A program made the position numbers and the translations under genes. 45,693 bases of DNA from a virus (lineage: Duplodnaviria > Heunggongvirae > Uroviricota > Caudoviricetes), in IMG/VR virus record IMGVR_UViG_2711768011_000016; one strand, 5' to 3'. Shown here one piece after another: positions 6,039-44,191 of this stretch (positions within the stretch are counted from its first letter, which is position 1; every line of letters starts with the position of its first letter). The notes beneath the pieces are model-generated. The model was not told the origin of the DNA. It made no database searches and saw only the letters and a program-made list of their open reading frames with translations.

Positions 6039-6871
6039 ACAGTTTAACGGCAAATAACCGTTTGTCGCAACAGCTGGTGGTCAGCGTCGCTGAACACCTG
6101 TTGTTACGGCATGAATGCAGATTACCAAATCACCTGGCTGTAAGTAACCACAGAGAACTTTACCTGACTGTGGGGGGCGAGTTGTGCAGGAACTTAACCG
6201 CTGGTTTCGTGACGGAAGAGGACTTTATGTTCATGTTATTCGTTGGGAGCCAGAAACACAGCGCGTTATCTATCTTCGCAAAGACTACCCGCATGAGTGC
6301 TTTAGTCCTTTGTGGAAATTCAGGCGTGATTTTGTTGAGTGTGAAGGACCACCAGCACATTGATTCTGCCATTCCGGGACGTTACACTGTTCAGGCACCT
6401 TATAAAGCGGGTGCCGGGATTGGCGTCCTGGAATTGATCAAGGCGATATATGACGCGCCAGCGTCTTTTTTATCGTCCGCATTTGCTCACATCAAAGTTA
6501 TGGTGGGCTGGGCGGGGGCATCGAAAGATGCGCCGGTTTCCTTGATCACCGGTTACGCCAACCCCGTTCAGTTCACCACCAGCGAAATTGGCGTTTCCGG
6601 TGGTGGAAGTATTTCACCGATCAAGGAGGCTGCCATCATGGCTACTGTCCCAGCCCTCACTCGTCTGAATGATGAAGACTTACATAAACTCAGTTATGTA
6701 ACAACTGCACTACGTGCTCTGCGCAAGGTAACTCTTTCGGATCCGCAGGCACATCAGGTTCTGGTAGAAACCCTTCTTAACTTGCAAGCTGAACGTATTC
6801 GTCTGGCGGATAAGGCTAATTTTCATATTCACCGTCTCCTGAATATCAGCGGAGGGCATCGTCATGCTTAA
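6035..6871 (+). CDS. hypothetical protein (gene model uncertain)
   Basis: Long open frame, but a protein-like 59-codon frame (GTG 6184-6363, GGGGGG RBS) overlaps it and a strong AAGGAGG RBS precedes an internal ATG at 6638. Confidence 0.35.
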   Translation: MNSLTANNRLSQQLVVSVAEHLLLRHECRLPNHLAVSNHRELYLTVGGELCRNLTAGFVTEEDFMFMLFVGSQKHSALSIFAKTTRMSALVLCGNSGVILLSVKDHQHIDSAIPGRYTVQAPYKAGAGIGVLELIKAIYDAPASFLSSAFAHIKVMVGWAGASKDAPVSLITGYANPVQFTTSEIGVSGGGSISPIKEAAIMATVPALTRLNDEDLHKLSYVTTALRALRKVTLSDPQAHQVLVETLLNLQAERIRLADKANFHIHRLLNISGGHRHA

Positions 6872-39100: not shown

Positions 39101-39566
39101 CGCCAGCGCATCCAGTACGGATTTGGGGACGAAAACCACATCGTCGTTTGATTACGGCACTAAATCCACGAATAACACTGGTGCGCATACCCATAGTTTA
39201 AGTGGCAGCACGAATGCAGCTGGTAATCACAGCCATAGAGATGGCCGTCGATTTAACCCCAGTGTTTTTAAAGATACTTATCAATATGGTTATACAAGCT
39301 CAGGTCAAAATACCTGGGGTGTACAAGGCTCAGTAGGTATGTCTACGGGGTGGTTAGCGAATACCAGTACAGATGGTAATCATAGCCACTCACTGTCCGG
39401 CACAGCAGCATCTGCAGGTGCACACGCGCATACTGTCGGTATTGGTGCTCATACGCACTCCGTTGCGATTGGTTCACATGGACATACCATCACCGTTAAC
39501 GCTGCGGGTAACGCGGAAAACACCGTCAAAAACATCGCATTTAACTATATTGTGAGGCTTGCATAA
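36168..39566 (+). CDS. stf: side tail fibre protein Stf
   Basis: [27 protein letters not shown]-terminus, Ala/Ser/Thr-rich tail-fibre repeats (AAKTSETNA x4), C-terminal HxH repeats. Confidence 0.85.
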
Positions 39567-40143
39567 TGGCATTCAGAATGAGTGAACAACCACGGACCAT
39601 AAAAATTTATAATCTGCTGACCGGAACTAATGAATTTATTGGTGAAGGTGACGCATATATTCCGCCTCATACAGGTCTGCCAGCAAACAGTACCTATATT
39701 GCACCGCCAGATATTCCGGCTGGCTTTGTGGCTGTTTTCAACAGTGATGAGGCATCGTGGCATCTCGTTGAAGACCATCGGGGTAAAACGGTTTATGACG
39801 TAGCGTCAGGGGACGCGTTATTTATTTCTGAACTCGGTCCGTTACCGGAAAATGTTACCTGGTTATCCCCGGAAGGGGAGTTTCAGAAGTGGAACGGCAC
39901 AGCCTGGGTGAAGGATACGGAAGCAGAAAAACTGTTCCGGATCCGGGAGGCGGAAGAAACAAAAAACAGCCTGATGCAGGTAGCCAGTGAGCATATAGCG
40001 CCACTTCAGGATGCTGTAGATCTGGAGATCGCAACGGAGGAAGAAAACTCGTTGCTGGAAGCCTGGAAGAAGTATCGGGTGTTGCTGAACCGTGTTGATA
40101 CATCAACTGCACCTGATATTGAGTGGCCTGCGGTCCCTGTTAT
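39566..40143 (+). CDS. tfa: tail fibre assembly protein Tfa (3' end lost in gap)
   Basis: Start overlaps the stf stop (TAATG); 192 codons read before the N run. Confidence 0.8.
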
Positions 40144-40555
40144 NNNNNNNNNNNNNNNNNNNNNNNNNNNNNNNNNNNNNNNNNNNNNNNNNNNNNNNNN
40201 NNNNNNNNNNNNNNNNNNNNNNNNNNNNNNNNNNNNNNNNNNNNNNNNNNNNNNNNNNNNNNNNNNNNNNNNNNNNNNNNNNNNNNNNNNNNNNNNNNNN
40301 NNNNNNNNNNNNNNNNNNNNNNNNNNNNNNNNNNNNNNNNNNNNNNNNNNNNNNNNNNNNNNNNNNNNNNNNNNNNNNNNNNNNNNNNNNNNNNNNNNNN
40401 NNNNNNNNNNNNNNNNNNNNNNNNNNNNNNNNNNNNNNNNNNNNNNNNNNNNNNNNNNNNNNNNNNNNNNNNNNNNNNNNNNNNNNNNNNNNNNNNNNNN
40501 NNNNNNNNNNNNNNNNNNNNNNNNNNNNNNNNNNNNNNNNNNNNNNNNNNNNNNN
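40144..40555. other. assembly gap (run of N)
   Basis: Contiguous N characters. Confidence 1.
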
Positions 40556-40601
40556 TTGTGATATGCCGCAGCAACTTGTCATGGCAGGATACTGCGGCTG
40601 A
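40556..40601 (+). CDS. 3' end of an unidentified CDS interrupted by the gap
   Basis: Open frame reading ...CDMPQQLVMAGYCG then TGA; the stop sits inside a hairpin (gccgcag ... ctgcggc). Confidence 0.25.
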
Positions 40602-40662
40602 TTTGTGAATTTAAATAGTGTGTTTATTGCTTTATATATAAAGGATTTAATGGATTACATAT

Positions 40663-42033
40663 CTATGATATCCCTGAAATGTCCTCTTCAAGCTCTTTTA
40701 CTGATTTCGCAATTTTAAATTTAAATTTTCTCTCTATTTCACTATTGCTAAGTTTTTTTTCATTCTCTTTCCCTATCCACATAGAAACAATTTCTCGTTT
40801 CTGAGATATATGTAGATTGTCAAAGTTAGGTATGTATTTAAAAGTCTCCGCTCTACCCCTGCGGAGTTCATAGAAAGTTTTAATCAAAGACTTTGGTTTT
40901 ATTTCTGATGAAAGGCCGAATCGGCGGATAAGATTATTGATCGTATGATTAACAGCTCGAAGTTGAGCTGTTGACGTTATTTGTGAGAAGTACGATACCC
41001 ATCCCAATCGTTTACCTTCAAACACACATCCCGTAATTCTAAGATTTAGTTTCCACTGACAATATGCAACAGCTCGTTCTTTATCGCGCTTATTTTTAGC
41101 TTGTAGTAGAGCGTGTCTATATGCAGTAAAAATTTTTGCTAAGGATGACTCAAATCTAAGAATGCTCTCATGTTTTATCAATAATTCTCGATTTTTTATG
41201 TGGTAGCCCAAAAAGTTGAAACTTTCATCCAAGCTGCCTACTTTGGATTTTGAGTTCTCTTCATTTAATGGATGTGGGTTTAAATTTAATGATTGAAGCT
41301 TATCAATGATATGAGAAGCTATTTTTGTTGCTTGATATTTTGGTGTTAAAATAAGAATGTCATCAACGTATCGCATGTACCATATGTCATGCATTTTATT
41401 GATTTCATCATCGAAATTAGATAGTGATATTTCAGCTAAAATGTTTGATATCGCTAATCCCTGAGGTACTCCTCTGGTATTATTAGGGATACCTTTGCTT
41501 CCTGTGGTTCCACTTACAGTAGGCACGATTAATGATGATGTTATTAACTGTCTAATTTCTTTTTTTCTAATTTTATTTTTTATTGCATTAATTATCAATT
41601 TATGTTCAATTGAAGGATAGAAACTTTTAAGATCTATTTTTGCATATTCAGCATATAGACTGTTGTTTAATGCTTCTTTCAATGAGTCAATTACTGTATG
41701 TGGTAGTTTTAATCTGGACTTAGGATATATTTCCGTAAGGCATTCACAGAGAGCTCTAAGAGTAATTCTGTCCCTAGCAGTTGGTATGGAAATCTGTCTG
41801 GGTGTAGAGTTAGCGCCTTTAGATATTAATTTTTCTTTATATGCTGTAAATTTGTAATTGCCAGAATTAACCTTTTCAAAAATGAAAGTGATCTCATTTT
41901 TTATTGTCAAATCAAGTTTTGATGGGCGAATCCGATCTATGCCAATCGCTCCTGATTCTTTGATTTTTTCAGAGTATACTTTTAGAAGATTTTTTTTCGA
42001 GAATGACTTTTTAAAAATTCTGCTTGCAGTCAT
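40663..42033 (-). CDS. reverse transcriptase (defence-associated, UG/Abi- or retron-like; family unassigned)
   Basis: RT motifs readable in the translation: RQISIPTARDRITLRAL, IDLKSFYPSI, GVPQGLAISNILAEI, YMRYVDDILIL (YVDD), FLGYHI; about 200-aa C-terminal extension; visibly AT-rich; first ATG at 42033 (TTG at 42039). Confidence 0.8.
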   Translation of the reverse strand: MTASRIFKKSFSKKNLLKVYSEKIKESGAIGIDRIRPSKLDLTIKNEITFIFEKVNSGNYKFTAYKEKLISKGANSTPRQISIPTARDRITLRALCECLTEIYPKSRLKLPHTVIDSLKEALNNSLYAEYAKIDLKSFYPSIEHKLIINAIKNKIRKKEIRQLITSSLIVPTVSGTTGSKGIPNNTRGVPQGLAISNILAEISLSNFDDEINKMHDIWYMRYVDDILILTPKYQATKIASHIIDKLQSLNLNPHPLNEENSKSKVGSLDESFNFLGYHIKNRELLIKHESILRFESSLAKIFTAYRHALLQAKNKRDKERAVAYCQWKLNLRITGCVFEGKRLGWVSYFSQITSTAQLRAVNHTINNLIRRFGLSSEIKPKSLIKTFYELRRGRAETFKYIPNFDNLHISQKREIVSMWIGKENEKKLSNSEIERKFKFKIAKSVKELEEDISGIS

Positions 42034-42562
42034 AGTCAATCCAAAGATATATTAATGGGAGTATATAAAGTGCGGCAGTAATAAATATTCGAAGTAATAT
42101 CCATAAAATAACAATTATTTTTTCTTTTTGTGTGGGGATCCTCGTCTTAAGTCCAACTTGAGTTACCCTTGAAATTTTATCATCTATGTCACGGTGATTC
42201 TCAACCTCATTGAGCAAATTAAAATATTTTTCTTTCTGTTCAAGAGATAACTGTTGACTGGTGGTAATGTCAAAATAGAGTCGCTGTAGTGCAATATAAT
42301 TCCTTCTCATGGCTATTGCTCGACCACGAAAATCTAGGTTAGATACGATCAGAGAAATACCCAGTAGAGCCACTGAAAGTATCGCCGCAACGACATCTGT
42401 ATTATCTCCTAGAACCTTTGGAAATCGCAACGTTACAATTGAAAGTACCGCACTCAATATAGCATACCAAACGAGGATAAATTGAGAGTGTTTTTCAAGC
42501 CATTCTAGTCGATGGTGCGCTTGGATACGTGCTTTATATGTAAACCAAATATTGTCATGCAT
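42011..42562 (-). CDS. multi-pass membrane protein, SLATT-like (putative effector partner of the RT)
   Basis: 183 aa with at least two hydrophobic helices after a short basic N-terminus and another near the C-terminus; 3' end overlaps the RT start. Confidence 0.55.
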   Translation of the reverse strand: MHDNIWFTYKARIQAHHRLEWLEKHSQFILVWYAILSAVLSIVTLRFPKVLGDNTDVVAAILSVALLGISLIVSNLDFRGRAIAMRRNYIALQRLYFDITTSQQLSLEQKEKYFNLLNEVENHRDIDDKISRVTQVGLKTRIPTQKEKIIVILWILLRIFITAALYILPLIYLWIDYDCKQNF

Positions 42563-42784
42563 AAAAGATCCTTTTTAAAAGCGGAAGGGGCAGGATATAT
42601 TGGAACCGTTGAACATCCTGCCCGGCAGGATCAGTGAGCATAAGCTCAACAGTAAAATATTACTGTTCATTATCAGAGCCGCCCTTGCATGCGCAAGAGG
42701 AAAAACCTGCCCCATCCCTTTGAATTATTACAATTTAATGATCTTAAAGTCAATACAAGTGAATGGTGTCCAGAGATGATGAAC

Positions 42785-43033
42785 TTAATGAACAAACCAC
42801 TCGTCAGCAGACTCCCAGGTATCTTTCAGAGTCTCCTGAACAAAAGTTTTAGCTGAATCTTTATCAGCGGTGCGCGTAACAGAAAGGCCATCGTTGCTGG
42901 TGGCTTTTACGATCACTTCTACATCGTCATAACGTTTACTGATGCGTCGGGTTAATTCTTCCTTTAACGCATCCACAGCACCGGTTGGCATTTTAGTCAT
43001 TTTTTCTTTGGCTATGCAGATTTCAATACGCAT
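42785..43033 (-). CDS. dinI: DinI-like SOS-inducible protein
   Basis: 82 aa; MRIEICIAK ... [15 protein letters not shown] matches the DinI family end to end. Confidence 0.75.
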
Positions 43034-43045
43034 AAAAGTCCCCTA

Positions 43046-43098
43046 CACTGTATTTGTATACAGTATTATTTTTAACTGTATGGATAAACAGTGTCAAG
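43046..43098 (-). promoter_or_regulatory. SOS promoter with two LexA boxes upstream of the dinI-like gene
   Basis: CTGT-N8-ACAG boxes at 43046-43065 and 43074-43093; on the minus strand TTGACA-17nt-TAAAAT with the boxes in the spacer and just downstream of the -10. Confidence 0.7.
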
Positions 43099-44191
43099 AG
43101 GTCTTATTTCTGCTCCTTTGGAGTTCTTCAAAACGATTATGTAAAGATTTCGGATACAGTTCGGTATATACCTGCCATAGCACGTTTAATGAACGATGCC
43201 CTGTAACCTGAGCGACTTCCTCAATACTAAAACCAGCCTCAAATAAGCGACTTGCCCCTTCTCTACGCAAATCATGGTATCTCAGATCTTTAATACCTAA
43301 TTTGCTTCTTACCCTCTGAAATCCTGCGGTAACAGAAGTGCTGTTATATGGAAAAATGAATTCTGATTTTTTGGGTTGTCGCTGGACGATATCCCAGGCT
43401 TCCCCAAGCAAGGCAACTTTCATATGGTTGCCTTCCTTTTTACGTGGATCTTTCCTGTCTCTTACTAGTATAGATTTTTGTTCCTGGTCGAGATCTTCCC
43501 ATCGTAACCGGCATACTTCTCCGATTCGCATACAGGACCACACAGAAAATTTGAGGATATCAACGAACGGAATTTTTGAGCATTTATGAGTAGATCGTTG
43601 TTGAAGGCCTTCAATGAGCATGTTCAGTTCATCAGATGCTGGTCTACGATTACGACGGTTTGATTTACCAATCAAACCGAGTTTAAGTAGATATGGACGA
43701 GCGCTTTTCGCCGGGTTTGATGTGTAATTGATTCCGTATACAGGTTTTGCCGCATCCAGAACACTGCCAAGATAACTAACATCGTGGCTGACTGTTGCTG
43801 GGCCTGCACCAGCGTTGTTTCTTAGCCTGCAATGTTCAATTACGTCATTTTCTGTCAGTTCAGATAGTTTGATCGCGGAGATGTCACTATCCATAAGCAG
43901 TTCCAGCACATATCTTTTAGTACGGCCTGCTTTACCTCCGGCATTTGGGTCATTTAAATATTTGTGTAGTAAGTCACGGACTGTAAGTCCGTCAACAGCA
44001 TTTGATGATGGAATGCCATATAGATCTAATTCCATCACTTTCTGTGCGCCCCATGTTTTGGCATGAGCATGTTTAGGGAATGTTTTGCTTTCCCTGTAAG
44101 TGATAACACCTTTTTCTTTGATAATCACATTACAGCGATAGCGTGGTGTGCCATCGGATTTTAGTCGTTTCTCTATGTTATAGTACGCCAT
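43094..44191 (-). CDS. int: tyrosine integrase (dusA-associated phage integrase)
   Basis: 365 aa with the C-terminal catalytic region (HDLRR ... LNVLWQVY); GAGG RBS; directly abuts the 5' end of dusA. Confidence 0.85.
   Translation of the reverse strand: MAYYNIEKRLKSDGTPRYRCNVIIKEKGVITYRESKTFPKHAHAKTWGAQKVMELDLYGIPSSNAVDGLTVRDLLHKYLNDPNAGGKAGRTKRYVLELLMDSDISAIKLSELTENDVIEHCRLRNNAGAGPATVSHDVSYLGSVLDAAKPVYGINYTSNPAKSARPYLLKLGLIGKSNRRNRRPASDELNMLIEGLQQRSTHKCSKIPFVDILKFSVWSCMRIGEVCRLRWEDLDQEQKSILVRDRKDPRKKEGNHMKVALLGEAWDIVQRQPKKSEFIFPYNSTSVTAGFQRVRSKLGIKDLRYHDLRREGASRLFEAGFSIEEVAQVTGHRSLNVLWQVYTELYPKSLHNRFEELQRSRNKTS

What the first reader, a model, noticed from the sequence alone, without database searches (positions are those of the whole stretch)
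42590..42725. Inverted-repeat-rich leader upstream of the RT operon: candidate ncRNA or operator
The 220-bp region between the dinI-like gene and the membrane-protein start carries GGGGCAGG (42596-42603) and its complement CCTGCCCC (42706-42713) about 100 nt apart. Between them are a perfect 17-bp palindrome ATCCTGCCCGGCAGGAT (about 42614-42634), an extra GCAGGAT copy and a short hairpin (cttgc-atgc-gcaag). Flanking inverted repeats around a structured core are what a retron msr/msd looks like, although the span is short for one and it lies upstream of the membrane gene rather than next to the RT. The alternative is a repressor operator controlling the module.
Basis: seen in the sequence. Interest (0 to 1): 0.6.

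Follow-up and report, generated by a model that had tools for sequence, protein, structure and literature searches.

The report
DRT10 reverse-transcriptase template RNA gene
The repeat-rich spacer is the gene for the small structured RNA that a known phage-defence reverse transcriptase (DRT10/UG17) copies over and over into tandem-repeat DNA, so it is a real element of an already described kind, not a retron RNA or a repressor binding site.

Summary
All genes here are on the minus strand: dinI, a 222-bp spacer, a SLATT_5 membrane gene, then a 456-aa UG17 reverse transcriptase (RT). That is the published DRT10 defence system.

The spacer encodes the DRT10 noncoding RNA, about 137 nt (window 42717-42581, minus strand). 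GGGGCAGG/CCTGCCCC is the closing stem SL1. The "hairpin" is SL2. The "17-bp palindrome" is SL5, the template-boundary stem. The 20 nt after SL5 are the template loop.

- **Structure:** in 28 homologues from four bacterial groups, 98.4% of pair cells are paired, against 48-56% in slid controls. Sixteen of 33 pairs show compensatory changes.
- **Independent detection:** a covariance model built without E. coli sequences finds one hit in the 45.7-kb window, 42583-42716 minus strand (E 2e-26).
- **Link to the published system:** an E. coli allele 98% identical carries CAAUGAUUC-CAAU, the exact complement of the published Eco3DRT10 repeat GAATCATTG. Every published nucleotide number fits.

This window carries the commoner allele, CAACGGUUC-CAAU (154 versus 34 genomes). 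I predict it makes (GAACCGTTG)n. The retron and operator readings are rejected. Already known; low interest.

The parts
42724..42753 (-). Sigma-70-type promoter of the ncRNA: -35 TTGACT (42753-42748), 18-nt spacer, TG-extended -10 AATAAT (42729-42724). The inferred start is G42717, 7 nt downstream.
   Evidence: Promoter scan, 10/12 match with TG. A TAnnnT hexamer ends 5-8 nt before the first SL1 pair in 19 of the 26 loci printed (window AATAAT hexamer not matched by that pattern). The start itself is inferred, not mapped.
42581..42717 (-). DRT10 (UG17) noncoding RNA, Eco3DRT10 type, about 137 nt. Nucleotide n corresponds to window coordinate 42718 - n.
   Evidence: Covariance-model hit at 42583-42716 minus strand, E 2.3e-26. 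The ends are inferred from the published 137-nt species, because U43, G44, G86, G104, U105-U106, C107, G111, C116 and A120-U123 all fall on the right bases with nt 1 = 42717.
42706..42717 (-). SL1 (basal stem), 5' arm GGAUGGGGCAGG.
   Evidence: Inverted repeat I1. 8 of its 10 pairs show compensatory changes. 75% GC, as published for Eco3 SL1.
42583..42594 (-). SL1 (basal stem), 3' arm CCUGCCCCUUCC. It is followed by GC-UUUU.
42679..42701 (-). SL2 (UCCUCUUGC-GCAU-GCAAGGGCGG).
   Evidence: 8 consensus pairs, 2 of them with compensatory changes. Two U-G pairs are invariant in 28/28 sequences and fix the strand.
42668..42678 (-). Loop A (CUCUGAUAAUG, nt 40-50), nearly invariant across homologues. 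In published Eco3DRT10 it is the second RT monomer's template and gives only a ~10-nt abortive product (U43, G44).
   Evidence: Conservation in alignment A3. The role is taken from 10.64898/2026.06.29.735271 and was not tested here.
42648..42667 (-). SL3 (AACAGUAA-UAUU-UUACUGUU), 25% GC.
   Evidence: Inverted repeat I7. 6 consensus pairs, 3 with compensatory changes, 100% paired.
42636..42647 (-). SL4 (GAGC-UUAU-GCUC).
   Evidence: 4 consensus pairs, 2 with compensatory changes.
42615..42631 (-). SL5, the template-boundary stem-loop. It is flanked by G86 (42632) and G104 (42614).
   Evidence: Inverted repeat I6. The five basal pairs AUCCN/NGGAU are kept in 28/28 sequences, while the apical UGCC/GGCA extension is specific to E. 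coli and Xenorhabdus.
42595..42614 (-). Loop B (template loop), 20 nt counting G104: G-UU-CAAC-GGUUC-CAAU-AUAU.
   Evidence: Read from the sequence. Aligned with the Eco3-type allele GUUCAAUGAUUCCAAUAUAU.
42603..42611 (-). Template A-B = CAAC-GGUUC (nt 107-115). The predicted cDNA repeat is 5'-GAACCGTTG-3'.
   Evidence: Positional homology with the Eco3DRT10 template CAAUGAUUC, whose product GAATCATTG is published. The product of this allele is a prediction.
42599..42602 (-). Realignment segment A' = CAAU (nt 116-119). C116 is the published priming position.
   Evidence: Here A and A' match at 3 of 4 bases, and the fourth would be a dG-rU wobble.
42011..42562 (-). SLATT_5 two-transmembrane effector gene (183 aa).
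   Evidence: Pfam SLATT_5, 1.3e-28. PADLOC RTasSLATT, 1.5e-56.
40663..42033 (-). UG17/DRT10 reverse transcriptase gene (456 aa from the ATG at 42033). It overlaps the SLATT gene by 23 nt.
   Evidence: PADLOC RT_UG17, 1.1e-158. RefSeq annotates 456 aa in identical loci. YVDD 222-225, R371, K385, Y388 and the C-terminal S456 are invariant in 23 homologues.

Best explanation
The spacer is the gene for the DRT10 (UG17) noncoding RNA of the Eco3DRT10 type.

**Expression and fold.** It is transcribed from its own promoter on the minus strand, starting at about 42717. The RNA is about 137 nt. Its two ends pair to form SL1, which closes a ring carrying SL2, SL3, SL4 and SL5 and two single-stranded loops, A and B.

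**Mechanism, by homology with the published system.** Two copies of the downstream RT bind this one RNA. The RT sitting on Loop B primes on its own C-terminal serine (S456) opposite C116. It copies the 9-nt template C115 to C107 and stops at a fixed distance from the SL5 anchor. The new DNA end then slips back onto the CAAU segment just downstream, and the cycle repeats. The product is kilobase-long single-stranded tandem repeats covalently attached to the RT. This allele is predicted to make (GAACCGTTG)n. The repeat DNA is thought to control the SLATT membrane effector that executes defence.

**What is shown here.**
- The element's position and strand.
- The conserved fold, with covariation.
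- Correspondence with the published RNA at every numbered base.
- The presence of all required protein residues.

**What is inferred.** Transcription, the exact RNA ends, the product sequence and the defence function.
For: **Gene context**
- RT_UG17 at 1e-158 and RTasSLATT at 1.5e-56; SLATT_5.
- Two independent preprints show that UG17+SLATT systems carry an RT-bound ncRNA in the spacer upstream of SLATT, and that it is required for defence (PMC12632851; 10.64898/2026.04.29.721553).

**Conserved structure**
- RNAalifold on a plain MAFFT alignment of 28 homologues recovers five helices with 33 pairs. The homologues come from Enterobacterales, Pseudomonas/Stutzerimonas, Stenotrophomonas and Bordetella.
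- 98.4% of cells are paired, against 47.7-56.3% with partners slid by 1-3 columns.
- 16 pairs and 86 cells have changes on both sides, against 4-7 pairs and 7-13 cells when slid.
- 0 of 500 shuffles reach the observed value on four of the five measures.
- U-G pairs invariant in 28/28 sequences fix the strand.

**Independent detection**
- Model R1, built from 24 non-E. coli sequences, gives a single hit in the window at 42583-42716 minus strand, 109.6 bits, E 2.3e-26.

**Identity with Eco3DRT10**
- The allele in E. coli Z0117EC0051 is 98.2% identical over the spacer. Its RT and SLATT proteins are each 98% identical to the window's. It has CAATGATTC-CAAT in the loop, the exact reverse complement of the published motif GAATCATTG plus its A'.
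- With nt 1 = 42717, the published U43, G44, G86, G104, U105-U106, C107, G111, C116 and A120-U123 all match. So do the 4-nt SL1-SL2 linker, the 75% GC of SL1 and the 25% GC of SL3.
- The RT is 456 aa, as published. S456, R371, K385, Y388 and YVDD are invariant.

**Promoter**
- A promoter-like site ends 7 nt before nt 1. Its position is conserved in homologues.
Against: - There are no expression, RIP-seq or cDNA data for this particular allele or strain.
- The RNA ends are transferred from the published relative and were not mapped here.
- In this allele A (CAAC) and A' (CAAU) match at only 3 of 4 bases. A second direct repeat, GUUC...GUUC with period 8, also lies in the loop, so the product register is not certain.
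- For a single 20-nt loop, an A-B-A' repeat of this size is not statistically unusual (shuffle p about 0.2). The support comes from its conserved position across homologues and from the literature.
- I could not retrieve the Eco3DRT10 sequence itself. The supplementary tables held are truncated. Identity with Eco3 therefore rests on the motif and the numbering, not on a direct alignment.
- Rfam 15 has no family for this RNA.
Confidence: 0.93

Rival explanations
1. The palindrome and its third half-site are operators for a repressor, phage or host, that controls the SLATT-RT operon at the DNA level.
For: A perfect 8+1+8 palindrome and a third GGCAGGAT copy 35 bp away. The element lies between a promoter-like site and the SLATT start codon.
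Against: The TGCC/GGCA part of the palindrome is missing in Pseudomonas, Stenotrophomonas, Bordetella, Buttiauxella and Photorhabdus homologues. There only ATCC-loop-GGAT pairing persists, with loops of varying length. Pairs change by compensation and through G-U intermediates, which makes no sense for a DNA site. The third copy is simply the 3' arm of SL1. Published SL5 sequence inversion keeps defence. No repressor gene lies next to the module.
Confidence: 0.02
2. The element is a retron msr/msd. The outer inverted repeats would be a1/a2, and the core would be reverse transcribed into branched msDNA.
For: Flanking inverted repeats around a structured core, close to an RT gene. Several database homologues of the RT are loosely named 'retron-type RT'.
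Against: The RT matches UG17 at 1e-158, and the 25 best PADLOC matches shown are DRT, UG or Cas-associated RTs; none is named as a retron RT. The core holds four short hairpins and two loops instead of a long msd stem. No Rfam RNA family matches. In the characterised 98%-identical system the product is protein-primed tandem-repeat ssDNA whose mobility is unaffected by RNase, copied from only 9 nt.
Confidence: 0.01
3. The structure is only a cis-acting leader. It would act as a terminator or attenuator that ends dinI transcription or gates read-through and translation of SLATT-RT, and would have no trans-acting RNA role.
For: SL1 is followed by GC-UUUU. No other terminator is predicted between dinI and SLATT. 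A transcript reading through from dinI is predicted to adopt a different pairing, with the SL5 3' arm paired to the SL1 3' arm.
Against: The terminator scan finds nothing on the minus strand here. The SLATT ribosome-binding site AAGGA (42573-42569) stays unpaired in the predicted folds. Conservation covers the unpaired Loop A and the position of the loop repeats, which a terminator does not need. Published work shows the RNA acts in trans and binds the RT. A terminator function for SL1 could coexist with the main explanation.
Confidence: 0.04

Closest known systems
Eco3DRT10 ncRNA (Tang et al., bioRxiv 2025, PMC12632851; Ramirez et al., bioRxiv 2026, 10.64898/2026.06.29.735271)
   Same: Same locus layout: ncRNA, then SLATT, then a 456-aa UG17 RT. 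Same 137-nt numbering, five stem-loops, Loop A with U43/G44, G86/G104 flanking SL5, the UU and AUAU linkers, A' = CAAU, and RT residues S456, R371, K385 and Y388. A 98%-identical E. coli allele carries the exact published template.
   Different: Two substitutions inside the 9-nt template (U110C and A112G) and one in SL2 (U25C). The predicted repeat is GAACCGTTG instead of GAATCATTG. A and A' share 3 bases plus a G-U wobble instead of 4. This is the commoner E. coli allele (154 versus 34 genomes), and it is shared with Xenorhabdus, so it is probably ancestral.
UG17-A ncRNA of Escherichia sp. E3659 (Sanchez-Nieto et al., bioRxiv 2026, 10.64898/2026.04.29.721553)
   Same: Same system type and the same position upstream of SLATT. 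Its own promoter, an essential basal stem SL1, and a single-stranded template with a flanking triplet repeat.
   Different: That RNA is about 143 nt with six stem-loops, and its template ACUUAUUACU gives 7-nt AGTAATA repeats. No sequence from that system was compared here; by stem-loop number it looks more like the Eco1 type (six stem-loops) than the window's five-stem-loop Eco3 type, but its clade was not tested.
DRT9 (UG28) and DRT2 (UG2) ncRNAs
   Same: Class 2 UG RTs that repeatedly copy a short internal template of a structured ncRNA. The published work notes that the DRT9 RNA resembles the DRT10 RNA.
   Different: DRT9 uses a poly-U template to make poly-dA and primes on tyrosine. DRT2 makes rolling-circle concatemers that encode a gene. 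The window's RT matches their models only weakly (Drt9 6.6e-20, Drt2 1.2e-24, against UG17 1e-158).
Telomerase RNA
   Same: It works alike: a short template plus an alignment segment (A-B-A') next to a structured 5' template-boundary element, with repeat addition by slippage and realignment (legend of Fig. 4).
   Different: DRT10 is protein-primed rather than primed on a chromosome end. The RNA is unrelated in sequence. The link is analogy plus a proposed RT phylogeny, and I did not test it here.
Retron msr/msd
   Same: An RT-associated structured RNA with terminal inverted repeats that serves as a template.
   Different: Different RT clade, no msd stem, no branching-G priming, and a different product. 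See the membership test.

Membership tests
DRT10 (UG17) tripartite defence system, ncRNA component | RT of the UG17 clade with an intact YVDD active site | tested here: met
   PADLOC RT_UG17 at 1.1e-158 over the full model length; next best 3e-38. YVDD at 222-225, invariant in 23 homologues.
DRT10 (UG17) tripartite defence system, ncRNA component | Adjacent SLATT-5 gene, translationally coupled or overlapping with the RT (SLATT-RT order) | tested here: met
   Pfam SLATT_5 at 1.3e-28 and PADLOC RTasSLATT at 1.5e-56. The SLATT stop codon ends at 42011 and the RT ATG is at 42033, a 23-nt overlap.
DRT10 (UG17) tripartite defence system, ncRNA component | Structured ncRNA in the spacer upstream of SLATT on the same strand, detectable with a clade-specific covariance model | tested here: met
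   A model built from 24 non-E. coli homologues gives a single window hit at 42583-42716 minus strand, 109.6 bits, E 2.3e-26. It gives no hit in distant alphaproteobacterial loci, in line with the published clade specificity.
DRT10 (UG17) tripartite defence system, ncRNA component | A basal stem formed by the two RNA ends, plus internal stem-loops, supported by covariation | tested here: met
   Five helices with 33 pairs; 98.4% paired; 16 pairs with compensatory changes; slid controls 48-56% paired.
DRT10 (UG17) tripartite defence system, ncRNA component | An A-B-A' direct repeat in the single-stranded loop just 3' of the last stem-loop | tested here: met
   CAA(C)-GGUUC-CAA(U) at nt 107-119, in the same register as Eco3. 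The match is weaker than in Eco3 (3 nt plus a wobble), and it is not significant for a single loop by shuffling (p about 0.2).
DRT10 (UG17) tripartite defence system, ncRNA component | C-terminal priming residue and RNA-anchoring residues in the RT (S456, R371, K385, Y388 in Eco3) | tested here: met
   All are present and invariant in the 23-sequence alignment.
DRT10 (UG17) tripartite defence system, ncRNA component | The RNA is expressed, is bound by the RT, and templates protein-primed tandem-repeat cDNA | not testable with these tools
   Shown for Eco1-3DRT10 and for the E3659 system in the literature. Only predicted for this allele.
DRT10 (UG17) tripartite defence system, ncRNA component | Phage defence that depends on the RNA, SLATT and the RT | not testable with these tools
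   Literature only.
Retron (msr/msd ncRNA) | RT of the retron clade | tested here: not met
   The best model is UG17, and the strongest other matches are DRT3, UG4, DRT2 and similar.
Retron (msr/msd ncRNA) | a1/a2 inverted repeats enclosing msr hairpins and one long msd stem-loop that is copied into DNA | tested here: not met
   Outer repeats exist, but the core is four short hairpins (4-8 bp) plus two conserved loops. No Rfam family matches.
Retron (msr/msd ncRNA) | 2'-5' branched RNA-DNA product primed from a conserved G | not testable with these tools
   In the 98%-identical published system, RNase treatment does not change product mobility, the product is linked to protein, and priming is on S456.
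Repressor operator | Half-site sequence conserved across homologous loci | tested here: not met
   Only the pairing of the palindrome is conserved. The apical TGCC/GGCA is clade-specific and loop length varies.

The most novel reading that the evidence does not exclude
The natural two-base template polymorphism in E. coli may be functionally meaningful rather than neutral. 154 genomes carry CAACGGUUC and 34 carry CAAUGAUUC, in systems that are otherwise 98% identical. The majority allele here would make a different repeat, GAACCGTTG. It would realign through a 3-nt match plus a G-U wobble. It also carries a competing 8-nt GUUC...GUUC register. Its product could therefore differ in sequence, precision or yield, and so change the activation threshold of SLATT or the sensitivity to phage ssDNA-binding triggers.

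A second speculative layer concerns the SOS response. Two LexA boxes lie upstream of dinI and no terminator follows it, so SOS-induced read-through transcripts might fold into the alternative SL5/SL1 pairing and fail to make a functional RNA.
Probability: 0.1. Interest if true: 0.5.

Novelty: already known. Interest (0 to 1): 0.2.

Why it matters
The result turns an unannotated spacer into a named functional RNA gene. RefSeq lists no feature under it in any of the 20 listed hits among the 188 E. coli genomes that carry it, and Rfam 15 has no family for it. It completes a DRT10 defence module carried by a dusA-integrated lambdoid prophage. The practical value is for annotation, plus one concrete testable prediction: this allele should make (GAACCGTTG)n. 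It also documents that the commonest E. coli allele is not the one studied in the laboratory. It does not reveal a new kind of system.

Tried and rejected
- **Rfam.** Permissive search of 40500-43300 and gathering-threshold search of the whole window. Only chance-level eukaryotic matches fall in the region, and there is no DRT or retron family.
- **Eco3DRT10 sequence.** Searching the supplements of PMC12632851 failed. The tables held are truncated and only Eco1-type rows are stored. I linked the element to Eco3 through the published 9-nt motif and nucleotide numbering instead.
- **Shuffle test of A-B-A' repeats in single loops.** Not significant (p about 0.2 for most). I do not count it as independent evidence.
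- **Model R1 on distant UG17 loci** (alphaproteobacteria, RT 31-34% identical). No hits, so nothing can be said here about those subtypes.
- **Alternative conformer** (SL5 3' arm paired with the SL1 3' arm, repeat I3). It is the minimum-energy fold only for the full 222-nt spacer. For the 137-nt RNA it is 3.3 kcal/mol worse, with about 2% pair probability. I reject it as the main fold.
- **Plus-strand transcript.** It folds almost as well (z = -4.78). It is excluded by the invariant U-G pairs and by the strand of the covariance-model hit.
- **PDB sequence search with the RT.** No DRT10 entry by sequence. The nearest are group II intron RTs, retron-type RTs and Drt3a.

Full report
**1. What is in the sequence**

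All relevant genes are on the minus strand:
- integrase, 44191-43094
- dinI, 43033-42785
- a 222-bp spacer, 42784-42563
- a 183-aa SLATT_5 membrane protein, 42562-42011
- a reverse transcriptase (RT), 42033-40663, overlapping the SLATT gene

dusA lies beyond the integrase on the plus strand.

- GGGGCAGG is at 42587-42594, not 42596-42603.
- CCTGCCCC is at 42707-42714. The arms extend to 12 nt with 11/12 complementarity.
- The 17-bp palindrome is at 42615-42631.
- The extra GGCAGGAT is at 42589-42596.
- The cttgc-atgc-gcaag hairpin is at 42684-42697.

Two further hairpins were missed, at 42648-42667 and 42636-42647. The minus-strand RNA folds far better than shuffles (z = -5.06). The plus strand does nearly as well, so folding alone does not choose the strand.

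**2. The neighbours identify the system**

The RT matches the PADLOC model RT_UG17 end to end (1.1e-158; next best 3e-38). The membrane protein matches the RT-associated SLATT model (1.5e-56). UG17 plus SLATT is the system now called DRT10.

Three preprints describe it:
- PMC12632851
- 10.64898/2026.04.29.721553
- 10.64898/2026.06.29.735271

They show the following:
- The spacer upstream of SLATT encodes a structured ncRNA, 137 nt in Eco3DRT10, which the RT binds.
- A short A-B-A' segment in a loop after the last stem-loop is copied repeatedly into tandem-repeat single-stranded DNA.
- Synthesis is primed on the RT's C-terminal serine.
- RNA, SLATT and RT are all required for phage defence.

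**3. Independent test of the RNA here**

I collected 44 loci that encode relatives of the RT. I anchored on the conserved SLATT N-terminus and extracted the upstream DNA.

A plain MAFFT alignment of 28 sequences was folded with RNAalifold, which recovered five helices with 33 pairs. The sequences come from E. coli, Xenorhabdus, Photorhabdus, Buttiauxella, Pseudomonas, Stutzerimonas, Stenotrophomonas, Bordetella and metagenome-assembled genomes (MAGs).

Explicit pair counts:

| Measure | Observed | Partners slid by 1-3 columns |
|---|---|---|
| Cells paired | 98.4% | 47.7-56.3% |
| Pairs with changes on both sides | 16 | 4-7 |
| Cells with changes on both sides | 86 | 7-13 |

None of 500 shuffles reached the observed value on four of the five measures. 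Two U-G pairs in SL2 are invariant in 28/28 sequences. On the opposite strand these would be A-C mismatches, so the functional strand is that of SLATT and the RT.

A covariance model built from 24 sequences, excluding E. coli and Xenorhabdus, finds exactly one hit in the whole 45.7-kb window. It lies at 42583-42716 on the minus strand (109.6 bits, E 2.3e-26).

**4.

- The outer GGGGCAGG/CCTGCCCC repeat is the basal stem SL1, formed by the two ends of the RNA.
- The cttgc hairpin is SL2.
- The 17-bp palindrome is SL5.
- The extra GGCAGGAT copy is the SL1 3' arm plus its first loop bases.

In homologues only the basal ATCC/GGAT pairing of SL5 persists. The apical TGCC/GGCA part and the loop vary. 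That argues against an operator. It also matches the published result that inverting the SL5 sequence keeps defence while shuffling it abolishes defence.

**5. Identity with Eco3DRT10**

I could not obtain the Eco3 sequence, because the supplementary tables held are truncated. The link is nevertheless tight.

The same spacer occurs in 188 of 5426 complete E. coli genomes. In strain Z0117EC0051 it is 98.2% identical, and its loop reads GUUCAAUGAUUCCAAUAUAU. CAAUGAUUC is the exact reverse complement of the published Eco3 repeat GAATCATTG. The next four bases, CAAU, repeat its first four, as published.

If nt 1 is set to window 42717, every published position falls on the right base:
- U43 and G44 in Loop A
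- G86 and G104 flanking SL5
- U105-U106
- C107
- G111
- C116
- A120-U123

Other published properties also match:
- a 4-nt SL1-SL2 linker
- SL1 at 75% GC and SL3 at 25% GC
- an RT of 456 aa from the ATG that RefSeq uses
- S456, R371, K385, Y388 and YVDD invariant in 23 homologues

The window's RT and SLATT proteins are each 98% identical to those of the Z0117EC0051 allele.

**6. Expression signals**

A sigma-70-type promoter lies at 42753-42724: TTGACT, an 18-nt spacer, then a TG-extended AATAAT. It ends 7 nt before nt 1. In 19 of the 26 loci printed a TAnnnT hexamer ends 5-8 nt before the first SL1 pair, often in the form TGTAGAAT or TGTAAGAT. SL1 is followed by GC-UUUU. The start and end of the RNA are inferred, not mapped.

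**7. This allele's template**

The window reads CAAC-GGUUC-CAAU at nt 107-119. It differs from the Eco3-type allele at U110C and A112G.

Thirty-base probes across the loop split the 188 genomes cleanly. 154 carry the window's allele and 34 carry the Eco3-type allele. The window's version is shared with E. coli IAI39 and with Xenorhabdus; Photorhabdus caribbeanensis carries the same 9-nt CAACGGUUC followed by UCAAU rather than CAAU, so it is probably ancestral.

The template boundary is set by distance from the SL5 anchor. I therefore predict the same 9-nt register, giving (GAACCGTTG)n. Realignment would use three matched bases plus a dG-rU wobble. A competing 8-nt direct repeat, GUUC...GUUC, also exists in the loop. 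The published Eco1 system shows that cryptic realignment sites lower precision, so this is a genuine uncertainty.

**8. Rivals**

- **Retron msr/msd:** wrong RT clade, no msd stem, no Rfam match, and the close relative makes a protein-primed product.
- **Operator:** the sequence is not conserved, and covariation runs through G-U intermediates.
- **Pure cis leader or terminator:** no terminator is called, the SLATT ribosome-binding site stays open, and unpaired Loop A is conserved. SL1 plus the U-run may still help define the 3' end.
- **Alternative pairing of the SL5 and SL1 3' arms:** it is the minimum-energy fold only for the full spacer. For the 137-nt RNA it is 3.3 kcal/mol worse.

**9. 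Verdict**

The element is the ncRNA of a known, experimentally characterised system and essentially an allele of Eco3DRT10.

Novelty: already known. Interest is low, apart from the natural template polymorphism and the fact that genome annotation and Rfam still miss this RNA.

Noticed in passing
window 42599-42611 (minus strand); E. coli genomes: Only two template-loop alleles occur in complete E. coli genomes. CAACGGUUC-CAAU (this window) is in 154 genomes and CAAUGAUUC-CAAU (the laboratory Eco3DRT10 type) is in 34, which together make up all 188 carriers. Two of the three differences between the two 137-nt RNAs fall inside the 9-nt template.
   Followed up: partly
window 43046-43065 and 43074-43093: Two LexA-box-like sites, CACTGTATTTGTATACAGTA and AACTGTATGGATAAACAGTG, lie just upstream of dinI. 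No terminator is predicted between dinI and the ncRNA promoter. SOS-induced read-through into the DRT10 module is therefore conceivable. The read-through transcript is predicted to fold differently.
   Followed up: partly
window 40144-40555: A 412-base run of N (masked or unsequenced) lies between the tail-fibre assembly gene and the 3' end of the RT gene. ORFs that run through it are artefacts.
   Followed up: no
window 6395-6471 and 6496-6583 (+ strand): Rfam gathering-level matches to the isrK Hfq-binding RNA (64 bits) and the C4 antisense RNA (82 bits), next to each other in the early region of the prophage.
   Followed up: no
window 39909-40107 (+ strand): Strong Rfam match to IS009 (224.6 bits, full length) inside the ORF 39566-40561 that follows the tail-fibre gene (probably tail-fibre assembly), just before the N run.
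   Followed up: no
L001 (E. coli IAI39), L002 (Z0117EC0051), L003 (AR434): The same dinI-ncRNA-SLATT-RT block sits in two chromosomal contexts. In the window and in AR434 it is next to an integrase and dusA. In IAI39 and Z0117EC0051 it is next to prfC with no integrase, and dinI is frameshifted in IAI39. RefSeq annotates no feature over the ncRNA in any of the 20 listed hits.
   Followed up: partly
window 42668-42678 (minus strand), alignment A3 columns 47-57: Loop A (CUCUGAUAAUG) is much more conserved across genera than the template-bearing Loop B. Yet the literature assigns it only an abortive ~10-nt product. The reason for this strong conservation is not obvious.
   Followed up: no
window 42033-42039: The mechanical ORF for the RT starts at a TTG (42039, 458 aa). 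RefSeq and the published 456-aa length point to the ATG at 42033, which makes the conserved priming serine residue 456.
   Followed up: yes
L030-L045: Alphaproteobacterial UG17-like loci (RT 31-34% identical) give no hit with the gammaproteobacterial ncRNA model. This is in line with the published statement that the ncRNA models work only within subtypes.
   Followed up: no
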